DNA of 64,000 nt from NCBI GenBank assembly GCA_945898275.1, contig CAMDHZ010000008.1:67542-131541 (forward strand), written 5' to 3'. The notes beneath the pieces were generated by a model. The model was given only the letters and a program-made list of their open reading frames with translations, searched no databases and was not told the origin of the DNA. Source of the stretch: Chitinophaga pinensis (GTDB lineage: Bacteria; Bacteroidota; Bacteroidia; UKL13-3). Both the position numbers and the translations under genes were made by a program. This document shows, one piece after another, positions 28,201 to 40,267 of the stretch (within the stretch, counting starts at the first letter, position 1; every line of letters begins with the position of its first letter).

Positions 28201-28527
28201 AAATTTCTGTTTGAACCCATTGGCCAAGTTTAATTGCTCGAGGTAGCCTCCTTTTAAAAAGGCATTTTGGTATAAATGGAAATACACTTCATATAAAGTA
28301 TCGGGGGAATTATTGGTATAAATAAGTAGTTCTTCCGCACTTATTACATCAGTTTGGTCGTTTACCTCAGCATTAATTTTATAATGTACATCTTGCTGCC
28401 AGTAAGCATTGTGGGGTTTTCTATTTTTCCAATAATAGGGATTTTCTGCAGAAGCAAAATCAAAATCTTGGGCAAAACCTGAGGTAATAAGAAGTCCAAA
28501 AAATATAGAAAATACGGTTTTCTTCAT
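25297..28527 (-). CDS. Secreted M1-family zinc metallopeptidase with a long beta-rich C-terminal extension
   Basis: 1076 aa with a signal peptide. The HExxH+E region reads FAHEIGHNWFFGMVGNNETYRASLDEGFTQF and the GAMEN-like motif reads GMEY. Confidence 0.7.
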   Translation of the reverse strand: MKKTVFSIFFGLLITSGFAQDFDFASAENPYYWKNRKPHNAYWQQDVHYKINAEVNDQTDVISAEELLIYTNNSPDTLYEVYFHLYQNAFLKGGYLEQLNLANGFKQKFGKYELDGKGTTIQRVLVNGELATPIIDFSIMKIKLKNPILPNAKATFQINFETYFDDGGNQRRRMKTFKDPQGNKQYDGVHWYPRICVYDRKFGWETAQHLGKEFYGDFGQFDINLTLPSHYILDATGELQNESEVLPEELRAKLEISNFKDKPYGEAASVIIPIDGKTKTWRFKAVNTHDFAWTADPTYRLGEYVLPMLGNPRGKVRCISLVQEPHAAGWQDAAKFNALIIQTYSKDFGTYAYPKMIVADARDGMEYPMLTLDNGRSPGYYGLFAHEIGHNWFFGMVGNNETYRASLDEGFTQFLTHWSMSRLRGETKVNRNSYIGKNYIPMSSLDQTVMYGYLRDAILNLDMPLNTHSDDFNGALHHGGGYSNVYYKTATMLYNLQYVLGDSLFLAAMQHYFNQWKMAHPYFEDFRNSIIQYTHVDLNWFFDQWMETTKTIDYGVPRVKQINKDTVAITFKRKGEMQMPLDFSILYKNNTSQNFYIPNTWFNKQTAASVLPKWTGWGLLNPTHTVLVPVTGKVKDVIIDPSKRLADVNLLDNSKKLPVLFSFDHQISSPPNRHNYSLKWRPDVWYNNYDGVKVGLHLNGNYLNLKHKFSLSIWHNSGIATNRLAEQYRRGPEINLFHYQFSYSHRLKKFQEVFVQSRFLDGLTLYKAGWENTIGKNKFSASIKAMKRHQIYYLGHSQSYTFNPVNSAPEILFPGMPNVSSFNNWVNSLNLTYERNYQLLNGLGKITLNVKGMAPFSNYNFAGIDGQLVQTNKLHKFELRSRLYAAYIDGSSVPGEFLINLAGANTEEMLENKFTRASGIVPEQWMNYTTEGNHFQVGGGLNLRGYAGYVNFITFDNTKFEAISGKYGSSINVEVDFDNYLSFINPKGLNKYVHFDSYLFADVGFLGKQFGNLKLETSVLADAGAGIALTIKKWGILDDPKPLTLRFDMPFYLSQPLSGETQNTAFRWVVGMGRSF

Positions 28528-28586: not shown

Positions 28587-29540
28587 ATGAATCAATTAAA
28601 ATTAGGTGACAAAGTTCGTTTTGTAAATGAGTCGATGGAAGGAATTGTTACTTCATTGAAAGATAAAAACTTAGTTGGTGTTACAGTAGAAGACGACTTT
28701 GAAATTCCTGTAATGGCGAGTGAGTTAGTAAAAATTAAATTTGAAGAAAAGGCAGGTAATAATCAACCAGAGCTACCAGCAGCAAAGGCTTTCAAAGGAA
28801 ATTCAATTCATCCTTTAGGAGTTTTCTTTGCCTTTGATAGGGTTGGAGAAGACGGTATTGAATTATTTGTTCACAATAATTTAGCCGAGTGGGTTATCCT
28901 AAATGTGTTTCAAAAAGAAGATGGTGTTTACCATTTGTGGCAACAATTGAAATTAGAAAGAGAAGAAACTTTACTGTTAGGGAAATATAAATTTTCTGCC
29001 ATACAAGATTGGAAAACCTTATTGGTTCAAATGCTGCCTGTTGAGTCGCATACCTTGAAACCAGGGAGTTTGGTTCAAACCGAATTAAACTTTGGCGTTA
29101 AAAAATTCCATCAATGGTTAAAACATTGTTTCTTTTTGAACCGACAAGCTTATATGCTAAGGTTAGATGAAGTTTTAGAACCCTTGAATTTAAAGGCATT
29201 AACACAAAGAGATTTTGCTGAGGCACCTGTTTCAAATATTAAAAATTTAAAGGATAAACCTTCAAGCATCATCGACTTACACTATGAGGCTTTGCAACGC
29301 AATGGATACGGAAGTGCAACAGATATTACAGCTTTTCAAATGGATGTCTTTACGCAAACTTTGGAGGCGGCCTTTGTACATCAAATGAAAGAAATAGTCT
29401 ATATCCACGGAGTTGGCAACGCCTATTTGAAAAATAAAATTCGTACTTGGTTAAGTAAGCATCCCGAAATGGTAAGCGAGTTTGAAGAAGCCGATTTATT
29501 ACAATTTGGCAATGGCGCCACCTTGGTTAAATTAAAATAA
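28587..29540 (+). CDS. Smr-domain protein (DUF2027 N-terminal + C-terminal Smr)
   Basis: The C-terminal region is Smr-like: IIDLHYEAL…VYIHGVGNAYLKNKIRTWL (LDLHG…IHGKG-type). Confidence 0.5.
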   Translation: MNQLKLGDKVRFVNESMEGIVTSLKDKNLVGVTVEDDFEIPVMASELVKIKFEEKAGNNQPELPAAKAFKGNSIHPLGVFFAFDRVGEDGIELFVHNNLAEWVILNVFQKEDGVYHLWQQLKLEREETLLLGKYKFSAIQDWKTLLVQMLPVESHTLKPGSLVQTELNFGVKKFHQWLKHCFFLNRQAYMLRLDEVLEPLNLKALTQRDFAEAPVSNIKNLKDKPSSIIDLHYEALQRNGYGSATDITAFQMDVFTQTLEAAFVHQMKEIVYIHGVGNAYLKNKIRTWLSKHPEMVSEFEEADLLQFGNGATLVKLK

Positions 29541-30014
29541 TTACGACAACAACTCTTGTCTAAGGATAAACTCCATTTGATCAGCACTGCGCTCTGCCGC
29601 ATCTGTGCGCTTGGCTTTTGTTCTAATTTCCTCTTCTTCTGCAAACTTAGCGATTGCCTTTTGTATGGTTTCATCCAATAAAGGCTCTTCCCAAGGTTTG
29701 TTTAAGTAAGCGAAAATCTTCCCTAAATTTACAGCATCAACGGTGTCTTCAAAATTGGCAAAACCTGTAAGCATAATTCTGATTGGAAAAGGATGCAGGT
29801 CAACTAGTTTTTTTAAAAATTCTACTCCAGTAATTTCTGGCATGCGTTGGTCGGTTATGACAACTTGAATATCAGGATTTTTCTCTAAAACAACCAAAGC
29901 ATCTAAAGCACTAATTGCAATAAATACATGATATTTTATTCTAAAACATGCCTTAAAAGACATGAGGTTATTTTCTTCATCATCTACATACAATACCTTA
30001 ATCTTTGTACTCAT
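29541..30014 (-). CDS. Stand-alone response-regulator receiver (REC) protein
   Basis: 157 aa with the REC acidic pocket (VLYVDDEENN…DQRMPE). It is paralogous to the REC of the hybrid kinase at 35183 and divergent from the ThiF-nitroreductase operon. Confidence 0.75.
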   Translation of the reverse strand: MSTKIKVLYVDDEENNLMSFKACFRIKYHVFIAISALDALVVLEKNPDIQVVITDQRMPEITGVEFLKKLVDLHPFPIRIMLTGFANFEDTVDAVNLGKIFAYLNKPWEEPLLDETIQKAIAKFAEEEEIRTKAKRTDAAERSADQMEFILRQELLS

Positions 30015-30100
30015 AATGTTTACCTAAACTTAAAATCAAATATAAAAGTAATTATTTATTTTGCTATTATTGTTATTCTAACAGCAATTATAATATTTTA

Positions 30101-32359
30101 ATGGAGTATACGACTTTGCAAATTACGCCTGAAATTTTAAAATTTACCCAAGCTGTTGAACTTGAGGAATGTATTTCAAGTCTTAAAGAAATCAGTCCTT
30201 TAAAGGTATTTGATAGTATTCAATTACAACTTAAAGACCTTTATAAATGTTTACATCCTCAATTGCCCTTTGCAGCCGCTGCATTTGAAATTTGGCTTAA
30301 AGATAGATTGGCAGATAAGCCATTGAGTTGTTATGGTAATTGGATTTGGTACCCTAGAGAGCGGGACCTAGTTCATCTGTTGCCAGAAGAAGAATTTATT
30401 TTGGTTCGAACCAACCGAAATAAATATAAAATAACCCAACAAGAGCAGGATATTTTGAGTGAAAAAGTTGTTGGGATAATTGGCCTTAGTGTTGGTCAAA
30501 CGGTTGCCATTGCCATTGCCATGGAACGTGGTGCTGGAGAAATAAGATTGGCAGATTTTGATACTATTGACCTAAGTAATCTCAATCGATTACGTTGCTC
30601 AATTACTGATATCGATTTAAACAAAGCAGAGATTTGTGCTAGAGAAATATGGAGAATTGACCCCTATCTTAAGGTTCGAATTTTTAAAGAGGGTCTTCAT
30701 GCCGGAAATATTGACGCATTTTTTACAGAAGGAGCTAAGCTCAATTTATTGATTGAAGAATGCGATGCCTTGGACATTAAAGTTTTGGCTAGACACAAGG
30801 CAAAAGAGCTAGGAATTCCAGTTTTAATGGAAACCAATGACCGCTGTTTAATTGACATTGAACGCTTTGATTTGGAACCAGAAAGGCCTTTGCTTCACGG
30901 CTTAATGGGAGACCTAGACCCTGAGAAACTGAAAGGATTAAGTCAGGAAGAAAAAATAACTTATTTGATGCCAATGGTGGGCTTGCAAGCTTTATCCGAG
31001 CGCATGAAAGCCTCAATGATTGAAGTGCAAAGTTCTATAAGCAGTTGGCCGCAATTGGCTTCTGCCGTGACTATGGGAGCTGGAGTGGCAGCAGATTTAA
31101 GTAGAAAGATTCTATTAAATGAGTCCACCGTTTCAGGCAGATTTTATGTTGATTTAGACGAGTTAATTCCACAACCTATTCAACTAAAAACAGCAATTGA
31201 ATTGGAAATCAGACCGGCTTTGTTGCAAGAACAAGAGTTAAAAACATATATTAACAAGGCTCGGTTTGAACCTAGACCAGATTTGTTAGATGAAATAGAG
31301 AAGCAAAATTTATTGAAAGCATGTATACATGCGCCGTCAGGAGGGAATTGCCAGCCATGGAAATTCTATTTTCACCAAGGAAATTTGTATATTTTTCATG
31401 AGCTGCACCATTCTGTTTCTATGTTAGATTTTGGACATTTTGGTACCTATCTATCCATTGGAGCGGTTGTTGAAAATGCTAGAATTTATGCAAATTCACT
31501 GGGTTTGCTTTTGAATTGTAGTTATTTTCCAGATGCAAGTAATACAATGCTTGTGGCGGCATTGAACTTTGAAAAGTCTTTTGGTCAAGTTGGTCATGTT
31601 TTAACTGTGCAACAACTCTTTGAGCGCCATACAAATCGGTTATTTACAATAAGAAAGGAATTAGATGTTGAACATGAAAAAGCCTTGCTCGACTTGATTG
31701 GTTCAAACCGAATTGGCAACCTGACCTTGATTAAAGATGCAGCTGAAATGAAGGAAGTTGCTGAAATATTAACTGAAGCAGAAAAGTTGTTGTTATTGAA
31801 TCCCCGCGGCCATCAAGATATATTTGAAAGAGAAATTCGTTGGACGAAGGAGGAAGCTGAGGCAAAAAGGGATGGAATTGATTTAGCCACATTAAACATG
31901 AGCAAGGCAGAGGTAATTGCCTTAAAAGTAGCTGGCAGCAGAAAAGTAATGGAGTGGGTGAGTAAATTTGATGGGGGCGAGGCATTTAAGAAAAACACTA
32001 AAAAAGTCATTGCTGCCTCTTCTGCAATAGGAATATTAAGTATGCCATTTCAAAATGTTGAGGCATATTTGCATGGGGGAGAATTAATGGAGCGCATCTG
32101 GATAAAATCCAATGCAATGGGATTAGCTTTTCAACCTGTAACGCAGTTCAGCTATTTATTAGCAAGAGCTGTAAACAATGGAAATGGATTGAATAGGGTC
32201 GAATATGAAAAATTGATTGAGTTAAAAAATCAATTAATTTTAAGGTTTCCAAATCTAAATCAAAGGGAGATTGTATTTATTTTTAGAATTGGTTACACCG
32301 AAAAAACACCAGTCATGGCTATGAGAAGGGAGATTGAAACAATGGTAATTAAAGACTAA
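30101..32359 (+). CDS. Rv1355c-like multidomain protein: ThiF/MoeB (E1-like) domain fused to two nitroreductase-family domains
   Basis: The ThiF nucleotide-binding region reads VVGIIGLSVGQTVAIAIAMERGAGEIRLADFDTIDLSNLNRL. The nitroreductase signature is CIHAPSGGNCQPWKFYF (APSxxNxQPW). The size, 752 aa, fits one E1 plus two NR domains. Confidence 0.65.
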   Translation: MEYTTLQITPEILKFTQAVELEECISSLKEISPLKVFDSIQLQLKDLYKCLHPQLPFAAAAFEIWLKDRLADKPLSCYGNWIWYPRERDLVHLLPEEEFILVRTNRNKYKITQQEQDILSEKVVGIIGLSVGQTVAIAIAMERGAGEIRLADFDTIDLSNLNRLRCSITDIDLNKAEICAREIWRIDPYLKVRIFKEGLHAGNIDAFFTEGAKLNLLIEECDALDIKVLARHKAKELGIPVLMETNDRCLIDIERFDLEPERPLLHGLMGDLDPEKLKGLSQEEKITYLMPMVGLQALSERMKASMIEVQSSISSWPQLASAVTMGAGVAADLSRKILLNESTVSGRFYVDLDELIPQPIQLKTAIELEIRPALLQEQELKTYINKARFEPRPDLLDEIEKQNLLKACIHAPSGGNCQPWKFYFHQGNLYIFHELHHSVSMLDFGHFGTYLSIGAVVENARIYANSLGLLLNCSYFPDASNTMLVAALNFEKSFGQVGHVLTVQQLFERHTNRLFTIRKELDVEHEKALLDLIGSNRIGNLTLIKDAAEMKEVAEILTEAEKLLLLNPRGHQDIFEREIRWTKEEAEAKRDGIDLATLNMSKAEVIALKVAGSRKVMEWVSKFDGGEAFKKNTKKVIAASSAIGILSMPFQNVEAYLHGGELMERIWIKSNAMGLAFQPVTQFSYLLARAVNNGNGLNRVEYEKLIELKNQLILRFPNLNQREIVFIFRIGYTEKTPVMAMRREIETMVIKD

Positions 32360-33046
32360 ATGATTAGAATTCGTGCATTTAAGGTGACGGATGACCACTC
32401 CGCCTGCTTGAGGTACATCAAGGGGCACCATTTGGTATTAGAGTCTTATGGCGTTACTAAGGTTACATCTTTAAATGCAGATTGGATAGATGACCCCAAT
32501 ACTTATGCGATTATAGTTGAATCAGAAGACAGCAAAAAGGTTTATGGTGGAGGCAGGGTTCAGATTAAAAGTGATACCTTAAAAATGCCTATGGAAGATG
32601 CAATAGCCATTTTGGATGATAGAATTTATGACTATACTGAAAAAATTGGGAAGTATCAGGTTGCAGAGTTTTGTGGGCTTTGGAATTCTAAAGAAATAGC
32701 TGGATATGGAATAGGTAGCATTTATATGGGCAGAGTGGGCGTTGCAGTAGCCTCCCAGCTTGGTGTGCAATTAATGGCCTTATGTTCACCAGGAACCTTA
32801 CGCAATTGCTTAAAAGTAGGATTTGATATCATAAGAGAGTTAGGGAACAACGGAACTTTTTATTATCCTAAGGAAGATTTAACGGCAACTGCACTTATAA
32901 TTAATGATTTAGTTAATTTACCTTTTGCCAATCCAGATGAAAAATTGGCAATTGAAAAAATAAAATCTAACTTGAGCGGCGGAGCTACAGAAAAAGGGCC
33001 AAAAGGCGTAATGGATTTTATATATGATTTGCAAATAAACCGATGA
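32360..33046 (+). CDS. Hypothetical protein (228 aa), co-operonic with the ThiF-nitroreductase protein
   Basis: It starts on the nucleotide after the upstream stop and overlaps the downstream kinase by 4 nt. I recognised no motif. A GNAT-like fold is possible but unproven. Confidence 0.4.
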   Translation: MIRIRAFKVTDDHSACLRYIKGHHLVLESYGVTKVTSLNADWIDDPNTYAIIVESEDSKKVYGGGRVQIKSDTLKMPMEDAIAILDDRIYDYTEKIGKYQVAEFCGLWNSKEIAGYGIGSIYMGRVGVAVASQLGVQLMALCSPGTLRNCLKVGFDIIRELGNNGTFYYPKEDLTATALIINDLVNLPFANPDEKLAIEKIKSNLSGGATEKGPKGVMDFIYDLQINR

Positions 33047-35190
33047 AGAAAATTATACTTTTTTTAAGTTTCTTGCTTACTTCAATGCTTTCATTTGGGC
33101 AGAAGCCTATTCTATTTGAAGGGACCAAGCAACTTGTCTTTCAACAAAGTATTTATTTTATTGATTCATCAAAAGTTGCTGGTCCAAATGAAGTAAATCA
33201 AGCTATACATGAAGGAAAGGGTTTTGCAGGGGTATTAGATTTAGACTATACAAAGTATCCTGTTTGGGTATATTTAAAAGTTTTGAATAAATCAAAAAGT
33301 AACCGGTTAACCATAACCATAGAAAATCCATTAATAGATTCAGCCGCCTTATTTTTGATTAATGATTCGCCACTTCCTTATCAACAAAATTATCTAGGTG
33401 AGGGGTATAAAAATCGTGCCTTAGCTGGAACTTATATAAGATTTAATTTACCTTCTGAAATAGGGGATACTAGTACATTTTTGTTAAAAGTATCAGGTAC
33501 AGAACAAATGCTTTTGCCTTTTTCAATTCAAACCGAAAAGGAAAGTCTTTCTAGTTCCATGGAACGAAATTTAATTTACGGTATTTTTATTGGTGTAGTG
33601 CTTGTAATGTTCTTTTATAACCTCTTTGTGTTTTTCTCCACAAGAGACCAAAATTACTTTTATTACATTCTTTATATACTTTTTATAGGTTTGGGTCAAG
33701 CCACCTTGAGTGGACATATTTACGCTTTATTGTTGGGTGATTATGCCGTTTTACATAAACTTTCTATCGTTGTTTTGCCAGCAATGTCGGGTGTTACTGC
33801 GATTTTATTTATTCAACATTTTTTGCAAGTAGAAAAGTTTGAACCTAAATTAAATAAGGCGCTTTGGGTGGTTTTAGTTTCTTATGGATTGGCTGCTTTT
33901 GTGAGAATAATTGGCTATCATCAAATTAGTGCAAGAATGATGGATAGCATTGGATTACCTGGTGCAGCTTTGGTTTACATAATTGCCATAAGAATTTATA
34001 AAAAGGGAGTTAAATCGGCCATTTATTTTATCATTGCTTGGACTGTCTTCATTATTGGGGTTGCCCTTTTTGTGTTGCGGAATTTTGGTTTGGTTCCTTT
34101 AACACCTATTACAACCTATACCTTACCATTTGGAGCGGCAATAGAAGTTGCTCTGTTATCTTTTGCCCTAGCCAACAAGATAAACACGCTTCAATCCGAA
34201 AAAAGTGAAAAGGAAAAGGAAGTAATGATAGCCATGTTAGAGAATGAGCGACTAGTGCGAGAACAAAATGAGATTTTGGAGCATAAAGTTAAGGAAAGAA
34301 CTACCGAATTGTATCAATCAAACAACCAATTATCTGAAGCAATTACCAATTTAAGAAACACCCAAACCCAACTAATTGAACAAGAGAAAATGGCGTCTTT
34401 GGGTCAGCTTACTGCTGGAATAGCGCATGAAATAAACAATCCAATAAACTTTGTAACTTCGAATATTAGTCCTTTGAAAAGGGATATTAAAATGCTAACT
34501 GATTTAATACATGCCCTCGAGGAACAAGTTGGTTTAGAAGGCAGCATTGAAGAGAAGAAAGCTAAAATAGAAAGTTTAAAGGAGGAAATTGACTATGAAT
34601 ATTTGCAAGAAGAACTTGGCTTTTTGCTAAAAGGAATTGATGATGGAGCCCACAGAACTTCTGAAATAGTAAAAGGTTTAAGGATATTTGCAAGGCAAGA
34701 TGAAGACGCACTGCTCGAAGCTGATTTAATAGAAGGGATTAACTCAACGCTTGTCATTTTGAACAATCAATTAGCTGGAATTAAGATTGAAAAGGATATG
34801 CCAACGCATCTTCCTATTCAATGTTATCCAGGAAAACTCAATCAGGTTTTTCTTAACTTGCTAAGTAATGCAATTTATGCTATTCATGAAAGACATAAAG
34901 ATTCTGAAAATGGATTGATTATTATAAAGGTTGAACAACAGGAAGATGATGTTTTTATTAAACTTGAGGATAATGGAACTGGCATGTCTGAAGAGGTGAA
35001 GAATAAAGTGTTTGAACCCTTTTTTACTACCAAACCTGTTGGAGACGGAACAGGATTAGGTATGTCAATAGTTTTTAAAACCATAGAAATGCATCATGGG
35101 AAAATTAAGGTAGAATCCCAATTAGGAAAGGGAACTTCCTTTGAAATAATTTTGAAAAAATCTATAAACCAAACTTCTAAAAATGTCTGA
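33043..35190 (+). CDS. 7TMR-DISM sensor histidine kinase
   Basis: It has a signal peptide and an extracytoplasmic 7TMR-DISM-type domain, then 7 TM helices and a coiled coil. The HisKA H-box is LTAGIAHEINNPINFV. The HATPase_c motifs are DNGTGM and GTGLGMSI. Confidence 0.8.
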   Translation: MKKIILFLSFLLTSMLSFGQKPILFEGTKQLVFQQSIYFIDSSKVAGPNEVNQAIHEGKGFAGVLDLDYTKYPVWVYLKVLNKSKSNRLTITIENPLIDSAALFLINDSPLPYQQNYLGEGYKNRALAGTYIRFNLPSEIGDTSTFLLKVSGTEQMLLPFSIQTEKESLSSSMERNLIYGIFIGVVLVMFFYNLFVFFSTRDQNYFYYILYILFIGLGQATLSGHIYALLLGDYAVLHKLSIVVLPAMSGVTAILFIQHFLQVEKFEPKLNKALWVVLVSYGLAAFVRIIGYHQISARMMDSIGLPGAALVYIIAIRIYKKGVKSAIYFIIAWTVFIIGVALFVLRNFGLVPLTPITTYTLPFGAAIEVALLSFALANKINTLQSEKSEKEKEVMIAMLENERLVREQNEILEHKVKERTTELYQSNNQLSEAITNLRNTQTQLIEQEKMASLGQLTAGIAHEINNPINFVTSNISPLKRDIKMLTDLIHALEEQVGLEGSIEEKKAKIESLKEEIDYEYLQEELGFLLKGIDDGAHRTSEIVKGLRIFARQDEDALLEADLIEGINSTLVILNNQLAGIKIEKDMPTHLPIQCYPGKLNQVFLNLLSNAIYAIHERHKDSENGLIIIKVEQQEDDVFIKLEDNGTGMSEEVKNKVFEPFFTTKPVGDGTGLGMSIVFKTIEMHHGKIKVESQLGKGTSFEIILKKSINQTSKNV

Positions 35191-36277
35191 ATTAAAATTA
35201 GCCAAACCAGTTGTTCTTTATGTAGATGATGAACGCAATAATTTGATGTCATTTAAGGCTTCTTTCCGTTTGGATTTTGAAGTATTATTAGCAAATTCAC
35301 CAGATGAAGCTTTTGATTTACTGAAGAAGCATAAACCGCAAGTAATCATTTCGGATTATAGAATGCCTTTCATGACTGGCGTAGAGATGTTTGAGAAAAT
35401 TCGCTTAATCCATCCAGAACCTTTTCGCGTTTTGCTAACTGCGTACGGAGATGTTGAAGCTTTAACTGATGCAATTAATAAAGGTCAAATATTTCGATAC
35501 ATAAAAAAGCCTTGGATAGAAGATGAAATAAGAAACGTAGTAAAAGATGCCACCGAGTATTACCATACCAAATGGTTGCTAGAAGAAAAAAATAGAGAAT
35601 TGGCTGAAGCATACAAAGAATTGGATAGATTTGTTTACTCTGTTTCCCATGATTTACGTTCACCACTTATGGGTATTTTAGCCATTGCAGGTTTCCTTCA
35701 AAAAACTCAGAAAATGGATGAGGTGCATGAGTTTGGAGACATGATTACCAGTAATGTTACTAGATTAGATGAATTTATCTCTAACCTATTGGAGTACTAT
35801 AAAGTTAAACGCGGGGAACTTACCATTTCCAGTGTAAAATTTGATAAATTATTGGATGAAATCAAGGGTATTTATGCCATCGAGATGATGGAAAAGAAAA
35901 TCAATTGTGAAATTTTTGTTACCCAAAATGAAGAATTTAGAAGCGATAAACTTGTTTTGTTAATTGTGATTCAAAATTTAATATCCAATTCTATCAAATA
36001 TCAAAAACTCGATAATCCTGATAAACAAATATTAATGTCTGCAACAGTGAACAGGGGAGAAGTTACTATTATTGTAAAAGACAATGGAATTGGCATTGGC
36101 AAAGAATTCCAACCTAGGGTATTTGAAATGTTTTTTAGGGCATCCTCTCAAGCTATGGGCTCTGGAATTGGCCTTTATAACGCTAATATGGCACTTAATA
36201 AACTAGGCGGAGAAATAGCCATTGAGTCTGATACAGGACAAGGAACAGCCTTCATTCTTAAAATTCCGAGCAAATAG
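35183..36277 (+). CDS. Hybrid response regulator-histidine kinase (REC + HisKA + HATPase_c)
   Basis: The N-terminal REC reads VVLYVDDERNNLMSFK…DYRMPFMTG. The H-box reads SVSHDLRSPLMGI. The HATPase motifs are DNGIGIG and GSGIGL. It overlaps the upstream kinase by 8 nt. Confidence 0.8.
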   Translation: MSELKLAKPVVLYVDDERNNLMSFKASFRLDFEVLLANSPDEAFDLLKKHKPQVIISDYRMPFMTGVEMFEKIRLIHPEPFRVLLTAYGDVEALTDAINKGQIFRYIKKPWIEDEIRNVVKDATEYYHTKWLLEEKNRELAEAYKELDRFVYSVSHDLRSPLMGILAIAGFLQKTQKMDEVHEFGDMITSNVTRLDEFISNLLEYYKVKRGELTISSVKFDKLLDEIKGIYAIEMMEKKINCEIFVTQNEEFRSDKLVLLIVIQNLISNSIKYQKLDNPDKQILMSATVNRGEVTIIVKDNGIGIGKEFQPRVFEMFFRASSQAMGSGIGLYNANMALNKLGGEIAIESDTGQGTAFILKIPSK

Positions 36278-36318: not shown

Positions 36319-39033
36319 ATGAAATTTTTAAAAATTTTTGGAATTAGCTTAGTTGTTTTATTCCTACTCTTATTAATCGCTCCTTTTCTTTTTAAAGGTA
36401 AAATTGTAGCTGCTGTAAAAAGTGCAACAAACGAGCAACTCAATGCCACGCTTTCTTTTAATGAAGACATTGGCTTGAGCTTAATCAGTAGTTTCCCTAA
36501 TCTATCTTTAACCATTAAAGATATTACGCTAATTAACAAAGCGCCATTTCTTGGAGATACGCTTTTTGCAACCAAAGAATTTAACGCTGTTTTAGATATT
36601 ATGAGCGTTATTAATGGGGAGCAAATCAATATTCGAAAAGTATTCTTGGATCAACCCAAAATTTATGCAGCAATTCTCCCTGATGGTTCTGCCAATTGGG
36701 ATATTACCTTAGTAGATTCAACTGCGTCACAAACGCCAGAGGATACTGCTAGTTCAGCCTTTTCTCTCAAATTAAGAAGCCTTGAAATCAAAGAAGGGCA
36801 TCTAATTTATGACGACAAACAAGGCAATATGAAAGCCGCTCTTCATAACCTTAATTATAAACTTTCTGGAGATTTTTCAGAAACACTTATGACAATGTTA
36901 AGCAATCTTTCTATTGAAGCGCTAACCTATGAAATGGATGGGATAACTTATTTAAACAAAGTTAAGGCTGCAATGGACGGAACTATTGAGGCAAATCTCA
37001 ACCAAATGCAGTTTGCCTTTAAAGAGAATACTTTTAAGCTTAATGCCCTAGAAATGGGTCTTGATGGTAACTTGGCCATGCCAGGTGATGACATGATTAT
37101 GGACCTCAAATGGGGGGTTAAACAAAATGATATTGCACAATTCTTATCCTTAATTCCTGCAGTTTACGCCAGCGATATGAAAGACCTTCAATCAAAAGGT
37201 AAGCTTACTTTAAACGGTTTTATCAAAGGAACTTATAATGAAACCTTAATGCCAGGTTTCGGTTTGAACCTAAGCATTGAAGAGGGTTGGTTTAAATACA
37301 CCGCTTTGCCCTATCCTTTAGAAGCATTGAATGTGAAGTTATCAGTTAATAATCCTGATGGAGTGCCAGACCATACCGAGATCAACCTTGAGAAATTACA
37401 TTGGTTATTACAAGGTGATGCTTTTGACGCCAAACTAATTGCAAAAACACCAGAAAGTGATCCTTATGTTGACGCTGTTTTTGCAGGGAAAATTAACCTA
37501 GGAAACCTAGGCAATTTAGTTCCGCTGCCAACAGGCACACAATTGCAAGGCGTTTTAACATCAGACCTTGCCGCAAAAGGAAATATGAGCACCTTAGATA
37601 AAGGCAATTATGAAGCCTTCGAAGCCAAAGGAAGCTTGCAAATTTCTAAATTGCTATATGCTTCATCTGATTTGCCGAAGCCTTTCAAGATTAATGAAGC
37701 AAGCATGAATTTTACGCCAAAGCAAGTGCTGCTTAATAATTTCGACGCTTCCATTGGCAATAGCGATTTTAAACTAAATGGTGCTTTAGAGAATTTTTAT
37801 GGATACTACTTAGGCAATGCAGTGCTCAAAGGGAACTTAAACCTTAACAGCCAATTGCTGGATGCTAACGAATGGTTAAGTGAAGACCCAGAGGCTGCCA
37901 CAGAGGATACAGCTGCAATGAGCATTGTACTTTTGCCAGAAAATATAGATTTTCAATTTAATAGCAATATTCAGAAATTACTATACACCAACATGGAAAT
38001 TACCAACTTCAAGGGAGGTGTTCATTTGGCAAATAAGCAATTAGATTTACAAAAAATTGCATTGGACTTATTAGGTTCAAACATGAAGTTGGATGGCTTT
38101 TATGAAACTAAAAATCCAATGGTGCCAACAACCAAAATTGACTTTAGCATCCAGAATTTAGATGTTCAGGCTGCTTATAAAACCTTCAATACTGTTAAGA
38201 AATTGGCGCCAGCAGCAGAAAACATCAGTGGAAAAATTAGTACAGTATTTACTATGAATACAGCTTTAACTTCCACCATGCAACCTGATTTAAATACCTT
38301 GATAGCTGAAGGATATTTGAGTATTCCACAGGCATCAATTGGAAACATTAATGCCCTTAACAAGGTTGCCGAGGTCTTAGCAAAACCAGAGTACAAACAA
38401 GTTTCAGTTACAAATGCAAAAATAAACTGGAAGGTATTAAATGGTAGAGTTTATACTGAACCTTTTAATGTGAAAATGGGTACACAAAACATTGAGTTAA
38501 GTGGTTCAACTGGTTTGGATCAAACCATTGCCTATAATGGATTAATAAATATTCCACGTAAAGATCTTGGTGCAGCCGATGCCGCAATCAATTCGGCCAT
38601 TAAACAGTTTAACTCAGCATTAGGTTCAGACCTTAAACTAAATGAAACATTACCATTGGTGTTAAACATTGGAGGCACTTTTACCAAGCCAGAAGTTAAA
38701 ACTAACCTAAAAGATTTGTTAAGTAATCAAGCGGGTTCTGTTAAAGATAAAGCCTTAGAGGAGGCAAAAAAGAAAGCCAAAGAGCTAGAAGCAAAAGCAC
38801 GTGAAGATGCTGCAAAACTGCGCAAAGAGGCTGAGGATAAAGCAAAGGCTGAGTCCCAAAAATTGAAATCAGAAGCAGAGGCTAAGGTAAATGCCGAGAA
38901 AGAAAAATTGAAGAAAGAAGCTGAGGCTAAAAAGAAAGAAGCAGAGGCCAAGGCCAAAGCAGAAGCCGACAAAGCTAAGAAGCAAGCTGAAGAAGAGGCT
39001 AAAAAGAAGTTAAAGGGACTTCTAAAACCATAA
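36319..39033 (+). CDS. AsmA-family protein with a K/E/A-rich low-complexity C-terminal tail
   Basis: 904 aa with an N-terminal TM anchor and a long beta-rich AsmA-like body. The last ~95 aa are coiled-coil-like (KKAKELEAKAREDAAKLRKEAEDKAKAE…). Confidence 0.6.
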   Translation: MKFLKIFGISLVVLFLLLLIAPFLFKGKIVAAVKSATNEQLNATLSFNEDIGLSLISSFPNLSLTIKDITLINKAPFLGDTLFATKEFNAVLDIMSVINGEQINIRKVFLDQPKIYAAILPDGSANWDITLVDSTASQTPEDTASSAFSLKLRSLEIKEGHLIYDDKQGNMKAALHNLNYKLSGDFSETLMTMLSNLSIEALTYEMDGITYLNKVKAAMDGTIEANLNQMQFAFKENTFKLNALEMGLDGNLAMPGDDMIMDLKWGVKQNDIAQFLSLIPAVYASDMKDLQSKGKLTLNGFIKGTYNETLMPGFGLNLSIEEGWFKYTALPYPLEALNVKLSVNNPDGVPDHTEINLEKLHWLLQGDAFDAKLIAKTPESDPYVDAVFAGKINLGNLGNLVPLPTGTQLQGVLTSDLAAKGNMSTLDKGNYEAFEAKGSLQISKLLYASSDLPKPFKINEASMNFTPKQVLLNNFDASIGNSDFKLNGALENFYGYYLGNAVLKGNLNLNSQLLDANEWLSEDPEAATEDTAAMSIVLLPENIDFQFNSNIQKLLYTNMEITNFKGGVHLANKQLDLQKIALDLLGSNMKLDGFYETKNPMVPTTKIDFSIQNLDVQAAYKTFNTVKKLAPAAENISGKISTVFTMNTALTSTMQPDLNTLIAEGYLSIPQASIGNINALNKVAEVLAKPEYKQVSVTNAKINWKVLNGRVYTEPFNVKMGTQNIELSGSTGLDQTIAYNGLINIPRKDLGAADAAINSAIKQFNSALGSDLKLNETLPLVLNIGGTFTKPEVKTNLKDLLSNQAGSVKDKALEEAKKKAKELEAKAREDAAKLRKEAEDKAKAESQKLKSEAEAKVNAEKEKLKKEAEAKKKEAEAKAKAEADKAKKQAEEEAKKKLKGLLKP

Positions 39034-39037
39034 CAGC

Positions 39038-40267
39038 ATGCGTAAATTACTGCTTTTACTTTTAGTATTATTTCTTCGGTTTGAACCTAGCTTTGCACAG
39101 GTGTATGGTTGCACAGATCCCTTAGCAACTAATTATAATAATGCAGCTACTAGAAATAATGGCTCTTGCGTTTATGCTAATACGAGTATTGCTCCTGTTA
39201 AGTCTACCTTAATTTCTGACACACTGAATGAAAGTTCTGGCTTAATTATTTATGGAAACCGACTTTTCACGCACAATGACAATACCAATTTAAACTTATA
39301 TGCCTTGGATTCAATTACGGGCAAAATTGTTAATACTTATGAGGTAAAAGGTGCTAGCAATATCGATTGGGAAGACCTTACACAAGATGCAGAATTTTTT
39401 TACATCGGAGATTTTGGAAACAATAGCAGCGGCAATAGAAAGGATTTAAAAATTTATAAGATTAGCAAAGTGTCATTGCTTTCTCGCAATCCTTTGGTTC
39501 AAACCATAACATTTTCTTATGAACCCCAAACCGATTTTAGCCCGCAAGCCGCTAATCAAACCAACTTCGATTGCGAGGCAATGGCAGCTGGCAAAGATTC
39601 CTTGTTTTTATTTTCTAAAGAATGGAGCAGCAATATAACGAGAGTATATTCGGTGCCAAAAGTTCCTGGAAATTATAAACTCAGGCCCTCATCTTCTTAT
39701 GATGTTAAAGGTTTAATTACTGGCGCATCCTTGCTAGAGGATAAGAGAGTTTTATTGCTTTGTGGTTACTCCACTTTGCTTCAACCATTTTTATATTTGA
39801 TGTATGATTATGAACCAGGTAATTTCTTTAGTGGCAACAAGAGAAAAGTACAATTGGATTTAGGTTTTCACCAAGTTGAAGGAATTGCTTCATTAAATGG
39901 GAAACAGGCATTTATTAGTAATGAGCATTTTATTAAACAACCATTAGCAAATAATCCTCAAAAAATTCATGTGCTAAATTTATCTAGTTTATTGGCAAAT
40001 TACTTGGATAATCCACCAACCTCATTGTCTAAAATTACATCTAGAAATGAAGATATTACTGTTTTTCCAGTGCCTAGCGATGGCGTTTTTAACCTAAAAG
40101 GCTTTTATGGTACTTTGGAGTTGTTTAATACTGCTGGAGAATTGTTAAAGCGATTTGAACCAAGTGAAGGTTTGCGAAAAATTGATTGTTCTGACTTGCC
40201 ATCTGGAATTTACTTTCTAAGAGGAAATGAAATAGAAACTATTAAACTTAGTGTTGAAAAACCTTAA
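39038..40267 (+). CDS. Secreted T9SS cargo protein, function unknown
   Basis: It has a signal peptide, an N-terminal Cys-containing motif CTDPLATNYNNAATRNNGSC, and the C-terminal sorting domain ITVFPVPSDGVFNLKG…. Confidence 0.5.
   Translation: MRKLLLLLLVLFLRFEPSFAQVYGCTDPLATNYNNAATRNNGSCVYANTSIAPVKSTLISDTLNESSGLIIYGNRLFTHNDNTNLNLYALDSITGKIVNTYEVKGASNIDWEDLTQDAEFFYIGDFGNNSSGNRKDLKIYKISKVSLLSRNPLVQTITFSYEPQTDFSPQAANQTNFDCEAMAAGKDSLFLFSKEWSSNITRVYSVPKVPGNYKLRPSSSYDVKGLITGASLLEDKRVLLLCGYSTLLQPFLYLMYDYEPGNFFSGNKRKVQLDLGFHQVEGIASLNGKQAFISNEHFIKQPLANNPQKIHVLNLSSLLANYLDNPPTSLSKITSRNEDITVFPVPSDGVFNLKGFYGTLELFNTAGELLKRFEPSEGLRKIDCSDLPSGIYFLRGNEIETIKLSVEKP

What the first reader, a model, noticed from the sequence alone, without database searches (positions are those of the whole stretch)
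29541..36277. E1-like (ThiF) + tandem nitroreductase fusion protein in an operon with an unknown 228-aa protein and two sensor kinases; paralogous REC encoded divergently
The 752-aa protein has an unassigned ~120-aa N-terminal region, then a ThiF/MoeB adenylation domain, then nitroreductase-fold domains carrying the APSGGNCQPW signature. Among proteins I know, this architecture is found only in Rv1355c (MoeY)-type proteins of unknown function.

E1-like plus SagB-like nitroreductase is also the domain logic of azoline-oxidising TOMM machinery, but this locus has no YcaO cyclodehydratase. The gene is followed by a 228-aa protein with no recognisable motif. Next comes a 7TMR-DISM histidine kinase, whose periplasmic domain is usually a carbohydrate or small-ligand sensor, and then a REC-HisKA-HATPase hybrid. 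The first two genes abut and the last two junctions overlap by 4 and 8 nt.

A single-domain REC paralogue is encoded divergently. Its N-terminus VLYVDDEENNLMSFKACF matches the hybrid's VVLYVDDERNNLMSFKASF.

The tight coupling suggests the E1/nitroreductase enzyme makes, modifies or responds to the signal handled by the phosphorelay. It could be a candidate signalling-metabolite circuit or a redox-stress circuit.
Basis: partly seen in the sequence, partly recalled or inferred. Interest (0 to 1): 0.6.

Follow-up and report, generated by a model that had tools for sequence, protein, structure and literature searches.

The report
Oxazolone synthase operon with sensor kinases
This is a five-gene cassette, conserved across environmental Bacteroidota, that joins the two enzymes known to make N-acyl-oxazolone lipids (TrzS/TrzA type) to a membrane sensor kinase and a phosphorelay, which gives a concrete way to test whether these recently discovered lipids are bacterial signals.

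Summary
Two of its statements are out of date.

The 752-aa ThiF + tandem-nitroreductase fusion belongs to the Rv1355c family (NCBIfam 733 bits, cutoff 476). That family was characterised in 2025 as TrzS, an ATP-dependent cyclase plus flavin oxidase that converts N-acyl-tryptophan to an N-acyl-oxazolone. OxzB (2020/21) is a related enzyme.

The "unknown" 228-aa protein is the missing N-acyltransferase:
- Its AlphaFold model (pLDDT 89.6) best matches BjaI and FeeM, the same two top hits published for TyzA.
- Its family profile aligns end to end with a TrzA family profile (E 2.8e-4), and the invariant residues coincide.

In 71 of 72 Bacteroidota genome loci with enough sequence, the enzyme pair is followed directly by the 7TMR-DISM kinase. 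The REC-kinase and a single-domain REC usually accompany it, and the flanking genes differ. Relatives in Sorangium, Blastocatellia and Actinobacteria lack the kinases. In Nocardia, c-di-GMP genes sit there instead.

Best reading: an oxazolone biosynthetic pair wired to a dedicated phosphorelay, most likely as a signal-synthase/receptor circuit. That last step is inferred, not shown. I found no paper describing this coupling. It is a new variant of a known kind.

The parts
29541..30014 (-). Single-domain response regulator (157 aa), transcribed divergently. Phospho-acceptor Asp55 lies in ITDQRMP and the KPW motif is at aa 106-108. A ~35-aa helical tail follows and there is no output domain.
   Evidence: Pfam Response_reg aa 7-117, E 3.8e-15. 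39% identical to the REC of the hybrid kinase. Motif positions. A small REC gene lies next to the cassette in most loci, upstream divergent or downstream.
30015..30100 (.). 86-bp AT-rich divergent intergenic region. It presumably holds the promoters for the REC gene and for the four-gene operon.
   Evidence: Sequence read. No Rfam family. The sigma-70 scan is not informative for Bacteroidota promoters and found no more sites than in shuffles. Its role is inferred from position only.
30101..32359 (+). TrzS/OxzB-type oxazolone synthase (752 aa). It has a family-specific N-terminal domain (aa 1-~100), a ThiF-like ATP-dependent cyclase (aa ~110-341) and a tandem-nitroreductase flavin-dependent oxidase (aa ~397-749).
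   Evidence: NCBIfam NF005901 'Rv1355c family' 733 bits against a cutoff of 476, covering aa 22-749. Pfam ThiF E 3.8e-17. PDB sequence hits are Acg nitroreductase 2ymv and ThiF-type proteins. Motifs are invariant from Bacteroidota to Actinobacteria, Sorangium and Blastocatellia.
30428..31123 (+). ThiF-like adenylation/cyclase domain of the fusion. It carries G125xxGLSVG132, D152/D154, SNLNR163, K175 and ECD222xxD225.
   Evidence: Pfam ThiF aa 110-341. Invariant columns in alignments A2 and A4. Motif positions.
31289..32347 (+). Flavin-dependent oxidase (FDO), a single-chain double nitroreductase fold. It carries APSGGNCQPW (411-420), R509xxxR513 and E578xR580.
   Evidence: NCBIfam Rv3131_FMN_oxido aa 404-683. 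PDB 2ymv Acg aa 397-684. R580 aligns with R539-R545 of actinobacterial homologues, near R540 of M. smegmatis TrzS, whose R540A variant loses desaturase activity (PMC12856293).
32360..33046 (+). TrzA-like N-acyl amino acid synthase (228 aa, GNAT fold). Invariant residues are G63-G64-x-R66-x-Q68, E103, W108, a G115xG117xG119 loop and Y169-P170.
   Evidence: AF2 model pLDDT 89.6, pTM 0.88. Foldseek PDB top hits are BjaI 5w8e (E 8.4e-7) and FeeM 2g0b (E 1.9e-6, TMt 0.73). hhalign against a Nocardia/Rhodococcus TrzA family gives E 2.8e-4 over 179 columns with coinciding invariant residues. It sits adjacent to the TrzS-like gene in the Bacteroidota loci.
33043..35190 (+). 7TMR-DISM sensor histidine kinase (715 aa). 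It has a signal peptide, an extracytoplasmic DISMED2 domain (aa 38-163), seven TM helices (aa 175-378), a coiled coil, an H-box AH462EINNP and an HATPase domain.
   Evidence: Pfam 7TMR-DISM_7TM E 1.5e-48, 7TMR-DISMED2 E 4e-12, HATPase_c E 1.9e-22. H-box position. It lies immediately downstream of the biosynthetic pair in 71 of 72 informative Bacteroidota loci.
35183..36277 (+). Response-regulator-controlled histidine kinase (364 aa). It has an N-terminal REC (Asp58), HisKA (His156 in SHDLRSP) and HATPase, with no TM segment.
   Evidence: Pfam Response_reg aa 11-120, HisKA aa 147-209, HATPase_c aa 257-363. Motif positions. It follows the 7TMR-DISM kinase in most loci. Its distances co-vary with the kinase core of the 7TMR-DISM protein (rho 0.67).

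Best explanation
The locus is a conserved five-gene cassette that couples synthesis of an N-acyl-oxazolone lipid to a dedicated phosphorelay.

Biosynthesis (inferred from homology to characterised enzymes; motifs shown here to be intact):
1. The 228-aa GNAT-fold enzyme, which is TrzA/TyzA/OxzA-like, N-acylates an L-amino acid with an acyl-CoA or acyl-ACP. The amino acid is aromatic in every characterised system.
2. The ThiF-like domain of the 752-aa protein adenylates the carboxylate and closes the ring to a 5(4H)-oxazolone.
3. The fused flavin oxidase domain desaturates C-alpha/C-beta with O2.

Coupling (shown by synteny): the two biosynthetic genes form one tightly packed operon with a 7TMR-DISM membrane kinase and a REC-kinase. 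A paralogous stand-alone REC is encoded divergently.

Mechanism I commit to (inferred):
- The lipid product, or its hydrolysed N-acyl-dehydro-amino acid, is the ligand of the co-transcribed 7TMR-DISM kinase. It binds in the DISMED2 domain or the 7TM bundle.
- Phosphate then passes from H462 to D58 of the REC-kinase.
- That kinase (H156) in turn phosphorylates D55 of the single-domain REC.
- The REC acts by protein-protein contact, because the cassette has no DNA-binding output.

This is the logic of a signal synthase next to a multi-pass receptor kinase, as in LuxM/LuxN and CqsA/CqsS.

Sub-confidences:
- Enzyme pair makes an N-acyl amino acid-derived oxazolone: about 0.85.
- Functional coupling to the phosphorelay: about 0.85.
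- Product is the kinase's ligand: about 0.4.
For: - Family membership of the fusion: NCBIfam Rv1355c equivalog 733 bits against a cutoff of 476. ThiF and FMN-oxidase motifs are invariant across four phyla.
- Rv1355c/TrzS, TrzA, TyzABC and OxzAB are biochemically characterised (PMC12856293, PMC10404671, bioRxiv 10.1101/2020.06.11.147165).
- The 228-aa protein has a confident model. Its best PDB matches are BjaI and FeeM, the same pair reported for TyzA.
- Its profile aligns with a TrzA family profile at E 2.8e-4 over 179 columns. The aligned invariant residues are GG-R-Q, Glu, Trp and Tyr-Pro.
- Synteny: 71 of 72 informative Bacteroidota loci have the 7TMR-DISM kinase immediately after the pair. 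There are two gene orders (S-A-HK and A-S-HK) and the flanks are unrelated.
- The loci are labelled Sphingobacteriales, Chitinophagales, Cytophagales and Cryomorphaceae genera, plus uncultured lineages.
- Start/stop overlaps of 0, 4 and 8 nt occur in the window, and similar overlaps occur in L001.
- All phospho-acceptor residues are intact.
- The kinase's sensor regions co-diversify with the oxidase domain after controlling for the kinase core and ThiF (partial Mantel r 0.34-0.35, p 0.002).
- Published speculation that oxazolones are signals: PMC12856293 discussion.
Against: - No experiment on any Bacteroidota member exists. The product, its amino acid and its acyl chain are unknown.
- The TrzA homology rests on a moderate hhalign probability (41%) plus fold similarity. 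Single GNATs next to other TrzS-like genes showed no similarity.
- Nothing shows that the kinase binds the product. The co-diversification signal could arise merely because fast-evolving domains resolve the same recent divergences.
- The cassette has no DNA-binding output and no exporter.
- One Pedobacter (L020) keeps the enzyme pair without the kinases, so the pair can function alone.
- Only the 80 most similar of at least 594 genome hits were examined.
Confidence: 0.45

Rival explanations
1. The phosphorelay senses an external or envelope cue, such as a carbohydrate, a cation, antibiotic stress or envelope stress, through the DISMED2 domain and controls how much oxazolone is made. The lipid is an effector (membrane component, antimicrobial, antioxidant or pigment) and not the kinase's ligand. 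Co-transcription then only keeps a pathway-specific regulator with its pathway.
For: - Characterised 7TMR-DISM sensors respond to external cues rather than to products of neighbouring genes. This rests on my general knowledge of LadS and NicD; the literature list shows no lipid-autoinducer example.
- Oxazolone production in Proteobacteria is induced by sub-lethal antibiotics, and the Mtb tyz genes are linked to oxidative-stress phenotypes.
- N-acyl-tyrosine derivatives of Stieleria have antimicrobial activity.
- L020 shows that the pair can exist without the kinases.
Against: - No transcription factor or other DNA-binding output is encoded in the cassette, so the route from the relay back to expression is not evident.
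- The kinase genes lie downstream of the biosynthetic genes in one operon, so relay and enzymes are made together. This suits a synthase-receptor pair at least as well.
- Sensor regions track the oxidase domain rather than their own kinase core.
Confidence: 0.35
2. The Bacteroidota enzyme pair carries out different chemistry from TrzAS/OxzAB. For example, the E1-like domain might activate the C-terminus of a peptide or protein, or the GNAT-fold protein might acylate something other than an amino acid. In that case the product is not an oxazolone.
For: - Identity to actinobacterial TrzS is only 32-34%.
- The acyltransferase family has no Pfam or NCBIfam model and is only remotely related to TrzA.
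- The conserved N-terminal domain has no known fold match.
- In related clusters from other phyla only N-acyl-dehydrotyrosines, not oxazolones, were observed (PMC12479983).
Against: - The protein scores well above the curated cutoff of the Rv1355c equivalog model over its full length.
- All ThiF and FDO motifs tested are invariant.
- The partner has the FeeM/BjaI N-acyl-amino-acid-synthase fold.
- No small ORF or ubiquitin-like or carrier-protein gene is in the cassette.
Confidence: 0.08
3. The adjacency has no functional meaning. A two-component module and a biosynthetic pair simply travel together by descent or horizontal transfer.
For: Non-Bacteroidota relatives (Sorangium, Blastocatellia, actinobacterial plasmids) lack the kinases.
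Against: - The linkage survives in 71 of 72 loci across several orders, with complete turnover of flanking genes.
- It also survives a rearrangement that moved the acyltransferase from downstream to upstream of the synthase while the kinase stayed directly behind the pair.
- Translationally coupled junctions occur in the window.
Confidence: 0.03
4. A TOMM/RiPP-like system in which the E1-like and nitroreductase domains process a ribosomal peptide.
For: There is a domain-logic analogy with azoline-forming and azoline-oxidising enzymes. MccB and PaaA-type ThiF enzymes have N-terminal peptide-binding domains (my general knowledge).
Against: - None of the six proteins scanned (the five cassette proteins and the upstream Smr protein) has a YcaO domain. 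No ORF of at least 80 aa other than the cassette genes and antisense or nested ORFs lies within the cassette, and the only intergenic gap is 86 bp.
- The N-terminal domain has no RRE or wHTH match.
- The family's characterised members act on N-acyl amino acids.
Confidence: 0.01

Closest known systems
TrzAS of Mycobacterium tuberculosis, M. smegmatis and Rhodococcus jostii (Rv1356c/Rv1355c; PMC12856293)
   Same: The same ThiF-cyclase + flavin-oxidase fusion, from the same NCBIfam equivalog family, with conserved ATP-binding and FMN/substrate motifs. It is paired with an adjacent small N-acyltransferase that lacks a Pfam model and is remotely homologous to the 228-aa protein.
   Different: - Only 32-34% identity.
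- Gene order here is synthase then acyltransferase, the reverse of trzA-trzS. A subset of Bacteroidota keep the A-S order.
- In Nocardia the neighbouring signalling gene is a GAF-GGDEF-EAL (c-di-GMP) protein, and the paper reports c-di-GMP genes beside trzAS in Mtb. Here it is a co-transcribed 7TMR-DISM kinase phosphorelay.
- The amino acid and acyl specificity here are unknown.
OxzAB of Pseudoalteromonas rubra and other Proteobacteria (de Rond et al.; bioRxiv 10.1101/2020.06.11.147165)
   Same: A two-gene N-acyltransferase + ThiF-nitroreductase di-domain system that makes N-acyl tyrazolones and phenazolones. The biological role is unknown and a signalling role has been suggested.
   Different: In the published ThiF-domain network, OxzB falls in a different subcluster from TrzS. 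It was reported in alpha-, beta- and gammaproteobacteria only. No sensor kinases were reported in its neighbourhood.
TyzACB of M. tuberculosis (PMC10404671)
   Same: The same three activities: acyltransferase, ThiF cyclase and FDO desaturase. TyzA, like the 228-aa protein, is an unannotated protein whose closest structural relatives are FeeM and BjaI.
   Different: ThiF and FDO are separate proteins, and the acyltransferase is divergently transcribed and 322 aa long. There is no two-component system.
Autoinducer synthase / multi-pass membrane kinase pairs: LuxM-LuxN and CqsA-CqsS of Vibrio (my general knowledge, not tested here)
   Same: A gene for a lipid-like signal synthase lies directly next to a polytopic membrane histidine kinase that feeds a multi-step phosphorelay.
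   Different: The enzyme and sensor families are unrelated. Ligand binding is proven for the Vibrio pairs and not here. No Hpt or LuxO-type output is found in the cassette.
7TMR-DISM sensors RetS and LadS (Pseudomonas) and REC-HK hybrids such as Leptospira LvrA/LvrB
   Same: The same sensor architecture (DISMED2 + 7TM + kinase). They belong to multi-kinase networks in which one kinase acts through another. The REC-HK matches NCBIfam LvrB and LvrA models below their cutoffs.
   Different: They are not orthologues, since all NCBIfam hits are far below their cutoffs. None of these is encoded in an operon with a small-molecule biosynthetic pair.

Membership tests
TrzS/OxzB-type oxazolone synthase (Rv1355c family) | Single polypeptide with an N-terminal ThiF-like domain fused to a C-terminal flavin-dependent oxidase of the nitroreductase superfamily | tested here: met
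   Pfam ThiF aa 110-341. NCBIfam Acg-type FMN oxidoreductase aa 404-683. PDB 2ymv aa 397-684.
TrzS/OxzB-type oxazolone synthase (Rv1355c family) | Full-length score above the curated cutoff of the NCBIfam equivalog NF005901 | tested here: met
   733 bits against a cutoff of 476. Aligned aa 22-749 to model positions 24-718 of 722.
TrzS/OxzB-type oxazolone synthase (Rv1355c family) | Conserved ThiF adenylation residues (Asp217 in M. smegmatis TrzS) and FDO active-site Arg (Arg540) | tested here: inconclusive
   All candidate residues are invariant across phyla (D152, D154, D222, D225, D247, R509, R513, R580). R580 maps to R539-545 in actinobacterial homologues. I did not have the M. smegmatis sequence, so the one-to-one mapping of D217 and R540 is approximate.
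TrzS/OxzB-type oxazolone synthase (Rv1355c family) | Adjacent N-acyl amino acid synthase gene (TrzA/OxzA/TyzA) | tested here: met
   The 228-aa gene abuts the synthase. It has a FeeM/BjaI-like fold and profile-profile similarity to a TrzA family (E 2.8e-4). It is adjacent in the Bacteroidota loci.
TrzS/OxzB-type oxazolone synthase (Rv1355c family) | ATP-dependent cyclisation and O2/FMN-dependent desaturation of an N-acyl amino acid to an oxazolone | not testable with these tools
   This needs enzyme assays or LC-MS of heterologous expression.
TrzA (Rv1356c) acyltransferase family | Sequence-level membership in the actinobacterial TrzA family | tested here: inconclusive
   hhalign A1 against A5 gives probability 41%, E 2.8e-4 and 22% identity over 179 columns, with coinciding invariant residues. 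The family was not retrieved by direct search, and a single-sequence comparison gave E 0.025. I treat it as a remote homologue, not a member.
Signal synthase / receptor-kinase (quorum-sensing-like) circuit | Synthase gene genetically linked to a membrane sensor kinase across taxa | tested here: met
   71 of 72 informative Bacteroidota loci.
Signal synthase / receptor-kinase (quorum-sensing-like) circuit | The kinase binds and responds to the synthase's product, and the product is released and accumulates | not testable with these tools
   Only indirect evidence exists: sensor regions co-vary with the oxidase domain (partial r 0.34-0.35, p 0.002). Published data show that N-acyl-Trp intermediates accumulate in supernatants and tryptazolones mainly in cells.
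Signal synthase / receptor-kinase (quorum-sensing-like) circuit | Dedicated transcriptional output regulator | tested here: not met
   No DNA-binding domain is found in any cassette protein. The only outputs are REC domains.
7TMR-DISM receptor family | 7TMR-DISMED2 extracytoplasmic domain followed by a 7TMR-DISM_7TM module | tested here: met
   PF07696 E 4e-12 (aa 38-163) and PF07695 E 1.5e-48 (aa 175-378), both above the gathering scores.
TOMM / azol(in)e RiPP cluster | YcaO cyclodehydratase and a precursor peptide gene | tested here: not met
   None of the six scanned proteins has a YcaO domain. No candidate precursor ORF appears in the ORF list at 80 aa or more, and the only intergenic gap is 86 bp. 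The rest of the window was not scanned for YcaO.
RRE / winged-helix peptide-binding N-terminal domain (MccB/PaaA-like ThiF enzymes) | N-terminal domain with an RRE or wHTH fold | tested here: not met

The most novel reading that the evidence does not exclude
Environmental Bacteroidota have no established native autoinducer system (my general knowledge). They may possess a phylum-wide, self-contained chemical signalling module. In it, an N-acyl-oxazolone (or its N-acyl-dehydro-amino acid hydrolysis product) made by TrzS/TrzA-type enzymes is the cognate ligand of a co-transcribed 7TMR-DISM kinase. Sensor and oxidase domains would then co-diversify to give lineage-specific signal/receptor pairs. 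This would also supply the first physiological role for the oxazolone lipids, including by analogy those of M. tuberculosis, where c-di-GMP enzymes flank the same genes.
Probability: 0.35. Interest if true: 0.85.

Novelty: new variant of a known kind. Interest (0 to 1): 0.6.

Why it matters
The authors of the 2025 TrzAS paper call the physiological role of oxazolones "a major unresolved question". The suggestion that they are signals has so far rested on structural resemblance to acyl-homoserine lactones and on neighbouring c-di-GMP genes.

This cassette offers a much sharper handle:
- In many Bacteroidota species the biosynthetic genes sit in one operon with a membrane sensor kinase and a phosphorelay.
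- Several carriers are culturable, including Pedobacter, Daejeonella, Dyadobacter and Cryomorpha.
- A synthase knockout, add-back of the compound, and kinase phosphorylation assays would therefore test the signalling hypothesis directly.

If the product is the ligand, this would be a new class of bacterial autoinducer and the first ligand of its kind for a 7TMR-DISM receptor. It would also be a candidate cell-cell signalling system in a phylum where none is well established.

If it is not the ligand, the cassette still extends oxazolone biosynthesis to Bacteroidota. It also defines an unannotated acyltransferase family with more than 1,600 database members.

Tried and rejected
- **N-terminal domain.** Tested for an RRE or wHTH fold. 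The model is confident but has no PDB match, so I make no fold assignment.
- **Single GNAT comparisons.** I compared the 228-aa family profile with single GNAT or hypothetical proteins beside TrzS-like genes. These were from Blastocatellia (L075), a Streptomyces plasmid (L088) and a Rhodococcus plasmid (L087). None showed similarity. Those partners are either different GNAT families or not acyltransferases.
- **PDB sequence search** with the 228-aa profile found nothing meaningful.
- **Plasmid copies.** Plasmid-borne Rv1355c genes in Rhodococcus and Mycolicibacterium were inspected as sources of TrzA. They are not canonical trzAS operons. The Nocardia locus L091 was used instead.
- **Rfam scan** of the window and three related loci found no RNA element in or near the cassette.
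- **Promoter and terminator scan.** The sigma-70 consensus scan found fewer promoter-like sites than in shuffles, and it is unsuited to Bacteroidota. I draw no promoter claim from it.
- **Source organism.** Three look-ups did not identify it. The nearest relatives are uncultured freshwater Bacteroidia MAGs (L007, L001).
- **TOMM/RiPP reading** rejected: no YcaO domain and no precursor ORF in the cassette.
- **Co-diversification test**. I keep it only as suggestive, because it is not phylogeny-aware.

Full report
**1. Observation**

- A 157-aa protein at 29541-30014 on the minus strand.
- On the plus strand, four genes:
  - 752 aa (30101-32359)
  - 228 aa (32360-33046)
  - 715 aa (33043-35190)
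  - 364 aa (35183-36277)
- The junctions are an abutting stop/start, then overlaps of 4 nt and 8 nt.

Pfam and NCBIfam confirm each domain call.
- The 752-aa protein has ThiF at aa 110-341 and an Acg-type FMN oxidoreductase at aa 404-683.
- The 715-aa protein has 7TMR-DISMED2, 7TMR-DISM_7TM (E 1.5e-48) and HATPase.
- The 364-aa protein has REC, HisKA and HATPase.
- The divergent protein is a lone REC.

The two REC domains are 39% identical over 151 residues (E 1e-34). The phospho-acceptor residues are all present: H462, D58, H156 and D55.

**2. What the enzymes are**

The 752-aa protein scores 733 bits on the NCBIfam equivalog "Rv1355c family protein" (cutoff 476) over nearly its whole length.

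That is no longer so.
- A full-text search for Rv1355c led to Kleetz et al., J Biol Chem 2025 (PMC12856293).
- They show that Rv1355c is TrzS. Its ThiF-like domain catalyses ATP-dependent cyclisation of N-acyl-L-tryptophan, and its fused flavin-dependent oxidase then desaturates it with O2. The product is an N-acyl-tryptazolone.
- The N-acyl-tryptophan is made by the adjacent acyltransferase TrzA (Rv1356c).
- Related systems are TyzACB of M. tuberculosis (PMC10404671) and OxzAB of Pseudoalteromonas rubra (bioRxiv 10.1101/2020.06.11.147165).

I aligned the window protein with homologues from Rhodococcus, Mycolicibacterium, Mycobacterium, Blastocatellia, Sorangium, Pedobacter and an uncultured Bacteroidetes bacterium. 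These motifs are invariant:
- The glycine-rich loop G125xxGLSVG132, plus D152/D154, SNLNR163 and K175.
- ECD222xxD225 and D247-R248.
- The flavin-oxidase motifs APSGGNxQPW, R509/R513 and E578xR580.

R580 corresponds to R539-R545 in the actinobacterial sequences. That is close to the R540 whose substitution abolishes desaturation in M. smegmatis TrzS. I did not have that sequence, so the mapping is approximate.

**3. The "unknown" 228-aa protein**

It has no Pfam or NCBIfam hit, even at E<=1 for 44 family members, and no sequence hit in the PDB. Its family is large, with 1,603 database hits.

- An AlphaFold2 model built on 44 homologues is confident (pLDDT 89.6, pTM 0.88).
- Foldseek against the PDB puts two proteins at the top. 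One is the CoA-dependent acyl-homoserine-lactone synthase BjaI (5w8e, E 8.4e-7). The other is the N-acyl amino acid synthase FeeM (2g0b, E 1.9e-6, TM 0.73 normalised to FeeM). LasI, TofI and EsaI follow.
- FeeM and BjaI are exactly the two closest structural relatives that Grigg et al. reported for TyzA.

To test homology with TrzA itself I needed a genuine TrzA.
- The Nocardia farcinica locus L091 reproduces the M. tuberculosis arrangement. A 249-aa protein with no Pfam match sits directly upstream of TrzS, and a GAF-GGDEF-EAL protein lies downstream.
- I collected that protein's family from Nocardia, Rhodococcus, Williamsia and Gordonia and aligned 29 members.
- I then compared the two family profiles. 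The result was E 2.8e-4, probability 41%, over 179 aligned columns spanning almost the full length of both.
- The invariant residues of the two families coincide:
  - G63-G64-x-R66-x-Q68 with GG-x-R-A-Q
  - E103 with E131
  - W108 with W136
  - Y169-P170 with Y195-P196

I conclude that the 228-aa protein is a remote homologue and the functional counterpart of TrzA/TyzA/OxzA. I do not claim it is a member of the TrzA family in the narrow sense.

**4. Is the link to the kinases real?**

Neighbourhood look-ups found the same five genes with entirely different flanks in four genomes:
- Bacteroidetes bacterium B1
- Dyadobacter fanqingshengii
- Pedobacter hartonius
- A Chitinophagales MAG

A scan of one genome per species found at least 594 genomes encoding a relative. 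The 80 most similar loci were fetched, and I annotated them with profile searches.
- 75 loci have at least 1.5 kb downstream of the synthase. In 71 of them the 7TMR-DISM kinase lies immediately behind the biosynthetic pair. The REC-kinase usually comes next, and a small REC gene lies nearby.
- All four exceptions lack the kinase. Three are non-Bacteroidota: two Sorangium and one Blastocatellia, the last with a canonical GNAT overlapping the synthase start. The fourth is a single Pedobacter (L020) that keeps only the enzyme pair.
- Two gene orders exist: synthase-acyltransferase-kinase, and acyltransferase-synthase-kinase. The kinase therefore stayed attached through a rearrangement.

Actinobacterial plasmid copies have no kinases. 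In Nocardia and on one Rhodococcus plasmid the neighbours are c-di-GMP enzymes, as the TrzAS paper notes for M. tuberculosis.

The functional link is therefore strongly supported. It is specific to Bacteroidota among the loci examined.

Limitation: only the 80 best of at least 594 hits were inspected.

**5. Mechanism**

Shown or strongly inferred:
- The pair makes an N-acyl amino acid.
- It then converts that to a 4-alkylidene/arylidene-oxazolone by adenylation-driven cyclodehydration and flavin-dependent desaturation.
- The amino acid and the acyl chain cannot be predicted.

The cassette encodes no transcription factor, no exporter and no RNA element.

I commit to the following reading, at about 0.4.
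- The product, or its hydrolysis product, is the ligand of the co-transcribed 7TMR-DISM kinase.
- The kinase signals through the REC-kinase to the paralogous single-domain REC.

The reasons are these.
- Operon logic. A synthase and a polytopic kinase made from one transcript resemble LuxM/LuxN and CqsA/CqsS (my general knowledge).
- The published view that oxazolones resemble acyl-homoserine lactones and are labile and inducible.
- An exploratory rate analysis. Across 66 loci the fastest-evolving parts are the extracytoplasmic DISMED2 domain (median 25% identity to the window) and the oxidase domain (33%). The ThiF domain (53%) and the kinase core (56%) are the most conserved.
- An exploratory distance analysis. 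In all-against-all distances over 58 cassettes, the DISMED2 and 7TM regions correlate better with the oxidase domain (rho 0.49 and 0.46) than with their own kinase core (0.23 and 0.27). Partial Mantel correlations controlling for kinase core and ThiF are 0.34-0.35 (p 0.002).

The distance result is suggestive only. The test is not phylogeny-aware, and fast-evolving domains may correlate for trivial reasons.

The main rival, at about 0.35, is that the relay senses an outside cue and tunes production of a lipid effector.

**6. Other checks**

- None of the six proteins scanned has a YcaO domain, and no candidate precursor ORF lies in the cassette. The TOMM reading is rejected.
- The flanking genes in the window are not conserved next to the cassette elsewhere and are not part of it. 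They are an M1-peptidase-like protein, an Smr protein, a DUF748-like protein and a T9SS-sorted protein.

**7. Comparison and novelty**

- The enzyme pair is a new, distant member of the known OxzAB/TrzAS/TyzACB kind.
- The cassette as a whole is an oxazolone pair transcriptionally fused to a 7TMR-DISM kinase, a REC-kinase and a REC. It is not mentioned in any of the seven papers in the library that name these compounds. No paper combines 7TMR-DISM with ThiF.
- I rate it a new variant of a known kind.
- Its value is that it turns the stated open question, what oxazolones are for, into a set of direct experiments in culturable Bacteroidota.
- Interest is 0.6. If the product proves to be the kinase's ligand, the interest would be about 0.85.

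Noticed in passing
window 30001-36000: GC skew over the cassette is strongly positive (+0.14 to +0.19 in 2-kb windows) against roughly -0.04 to +0.07 in the flanks. GC content is unremarkable at 34-37%. This may be a coding-strand purine bias of these four genes or a trace of separate ancestry.
   Followed up: no
L088 4839-6637 (Streptomyces sp. NBC_01471 plasmid), also hits H17-H19: Streptomyces and Kitasatospora plasmids carry a stand-alone ThiF protein that is 43-48% identical to aa 19-396 of the window enzyme. That is more than actinobacterial TrzS (32-34%). In L088 a GNAT gene overlaps its end by 4 nt and there is no oxidase domain. This may be a cyclase-only pathway giving a saturated oxazolone.
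   Followed up: partly
L091 3069-7841 (Nocardia farcinica); L087 2851-6944 (Rhodococcus plasmid): In Actinobacteria the TrzS gene is flanked by c-di-GMP enzymes: GAF-GGDEF-EAL in Nocardia and a GGDEF protein on the Rhodococcus plasmid. In two phyla, therefore, oxazolone genes sit beside signal-transduction genes of different kinds. The REC domains of the window cassette best match the REC of NosR-family c-di-GMP phosphodiesterase regulators, below that model's cutoff.
   Followed up: partly
L023 12406-13856; L026 2796-4240; L063 14539-18707: There are cassette variants. L023 and L026 have tandem duplicated acyltransferase genes. L063 has a second, inverted copy of the 7TMR-DISM kinase + REC-kinase pair next to the first. 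These may reflect more than one signal or receptor specificity per genome.
   Followed up: no
L014, L042 (labelled Bifidobacterium), L026 (Akkermansia), L066 (Azovibrio restrictus): MAG contigs with non-Bacteroidota labels carry the complete Bacteroidota-type cassette at 38-42% identity to the window enzyme. These are probably mis-binned or mislabelled contigs rather than horizontal transfer.
   Followed up: no
L001 7740-10696 compared with window 30101-33046: Among close relatives the acyltransferase is much more conserved than the synthase (81% against 52% identity in Bacteroidetes bacterium B1). Among distant relatives the two are similar (median 43% against 41%). This is unusual for a secondary-metabolite tailoring enzyme.
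   Followed up: partly
H12-H15 (Nitratidesulfovibrio vulgaris megaplasmids): The well-studied Desulfovibrio vulgaris Hildenborough megaplasmid encodes a full-length ThiF-nitroreductase fusion, about 24% identical over 88% of the query and annotated only as a ThiF family adenylyltransferase.
   Followed up: no
window 25297-28527 (-), 28587-29540 (+), 36319-39033 (+), 39038-40267 (+): The flanking genes are a 1076-aa M1-peptidase-like protein with a long C-terminal extension and a 317-aa Smr-domain protein whose stop abuts the REC gene's stop. There is also a 904-aa DUF748-like protein with a Lys/Glu/Ala-rich tail and a T9SS-tail protein. None is conserved beside the cassette in other genomes.
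   Followed up: partly
L075 1720-5153 (Blastocatellia MAG): An acidobacterial TrzS relative (38% identity) is preceded by a 370-aa canonical Pfam GNAT (Acetyltransf_1) that overlaps it by 4 nt. This GNAT shows no similarity to the Bacteroidota acyltransferase family, which suggests that the acyltransferase partner has been replaced non-orthologously in different phyla.
   Followed up: partly
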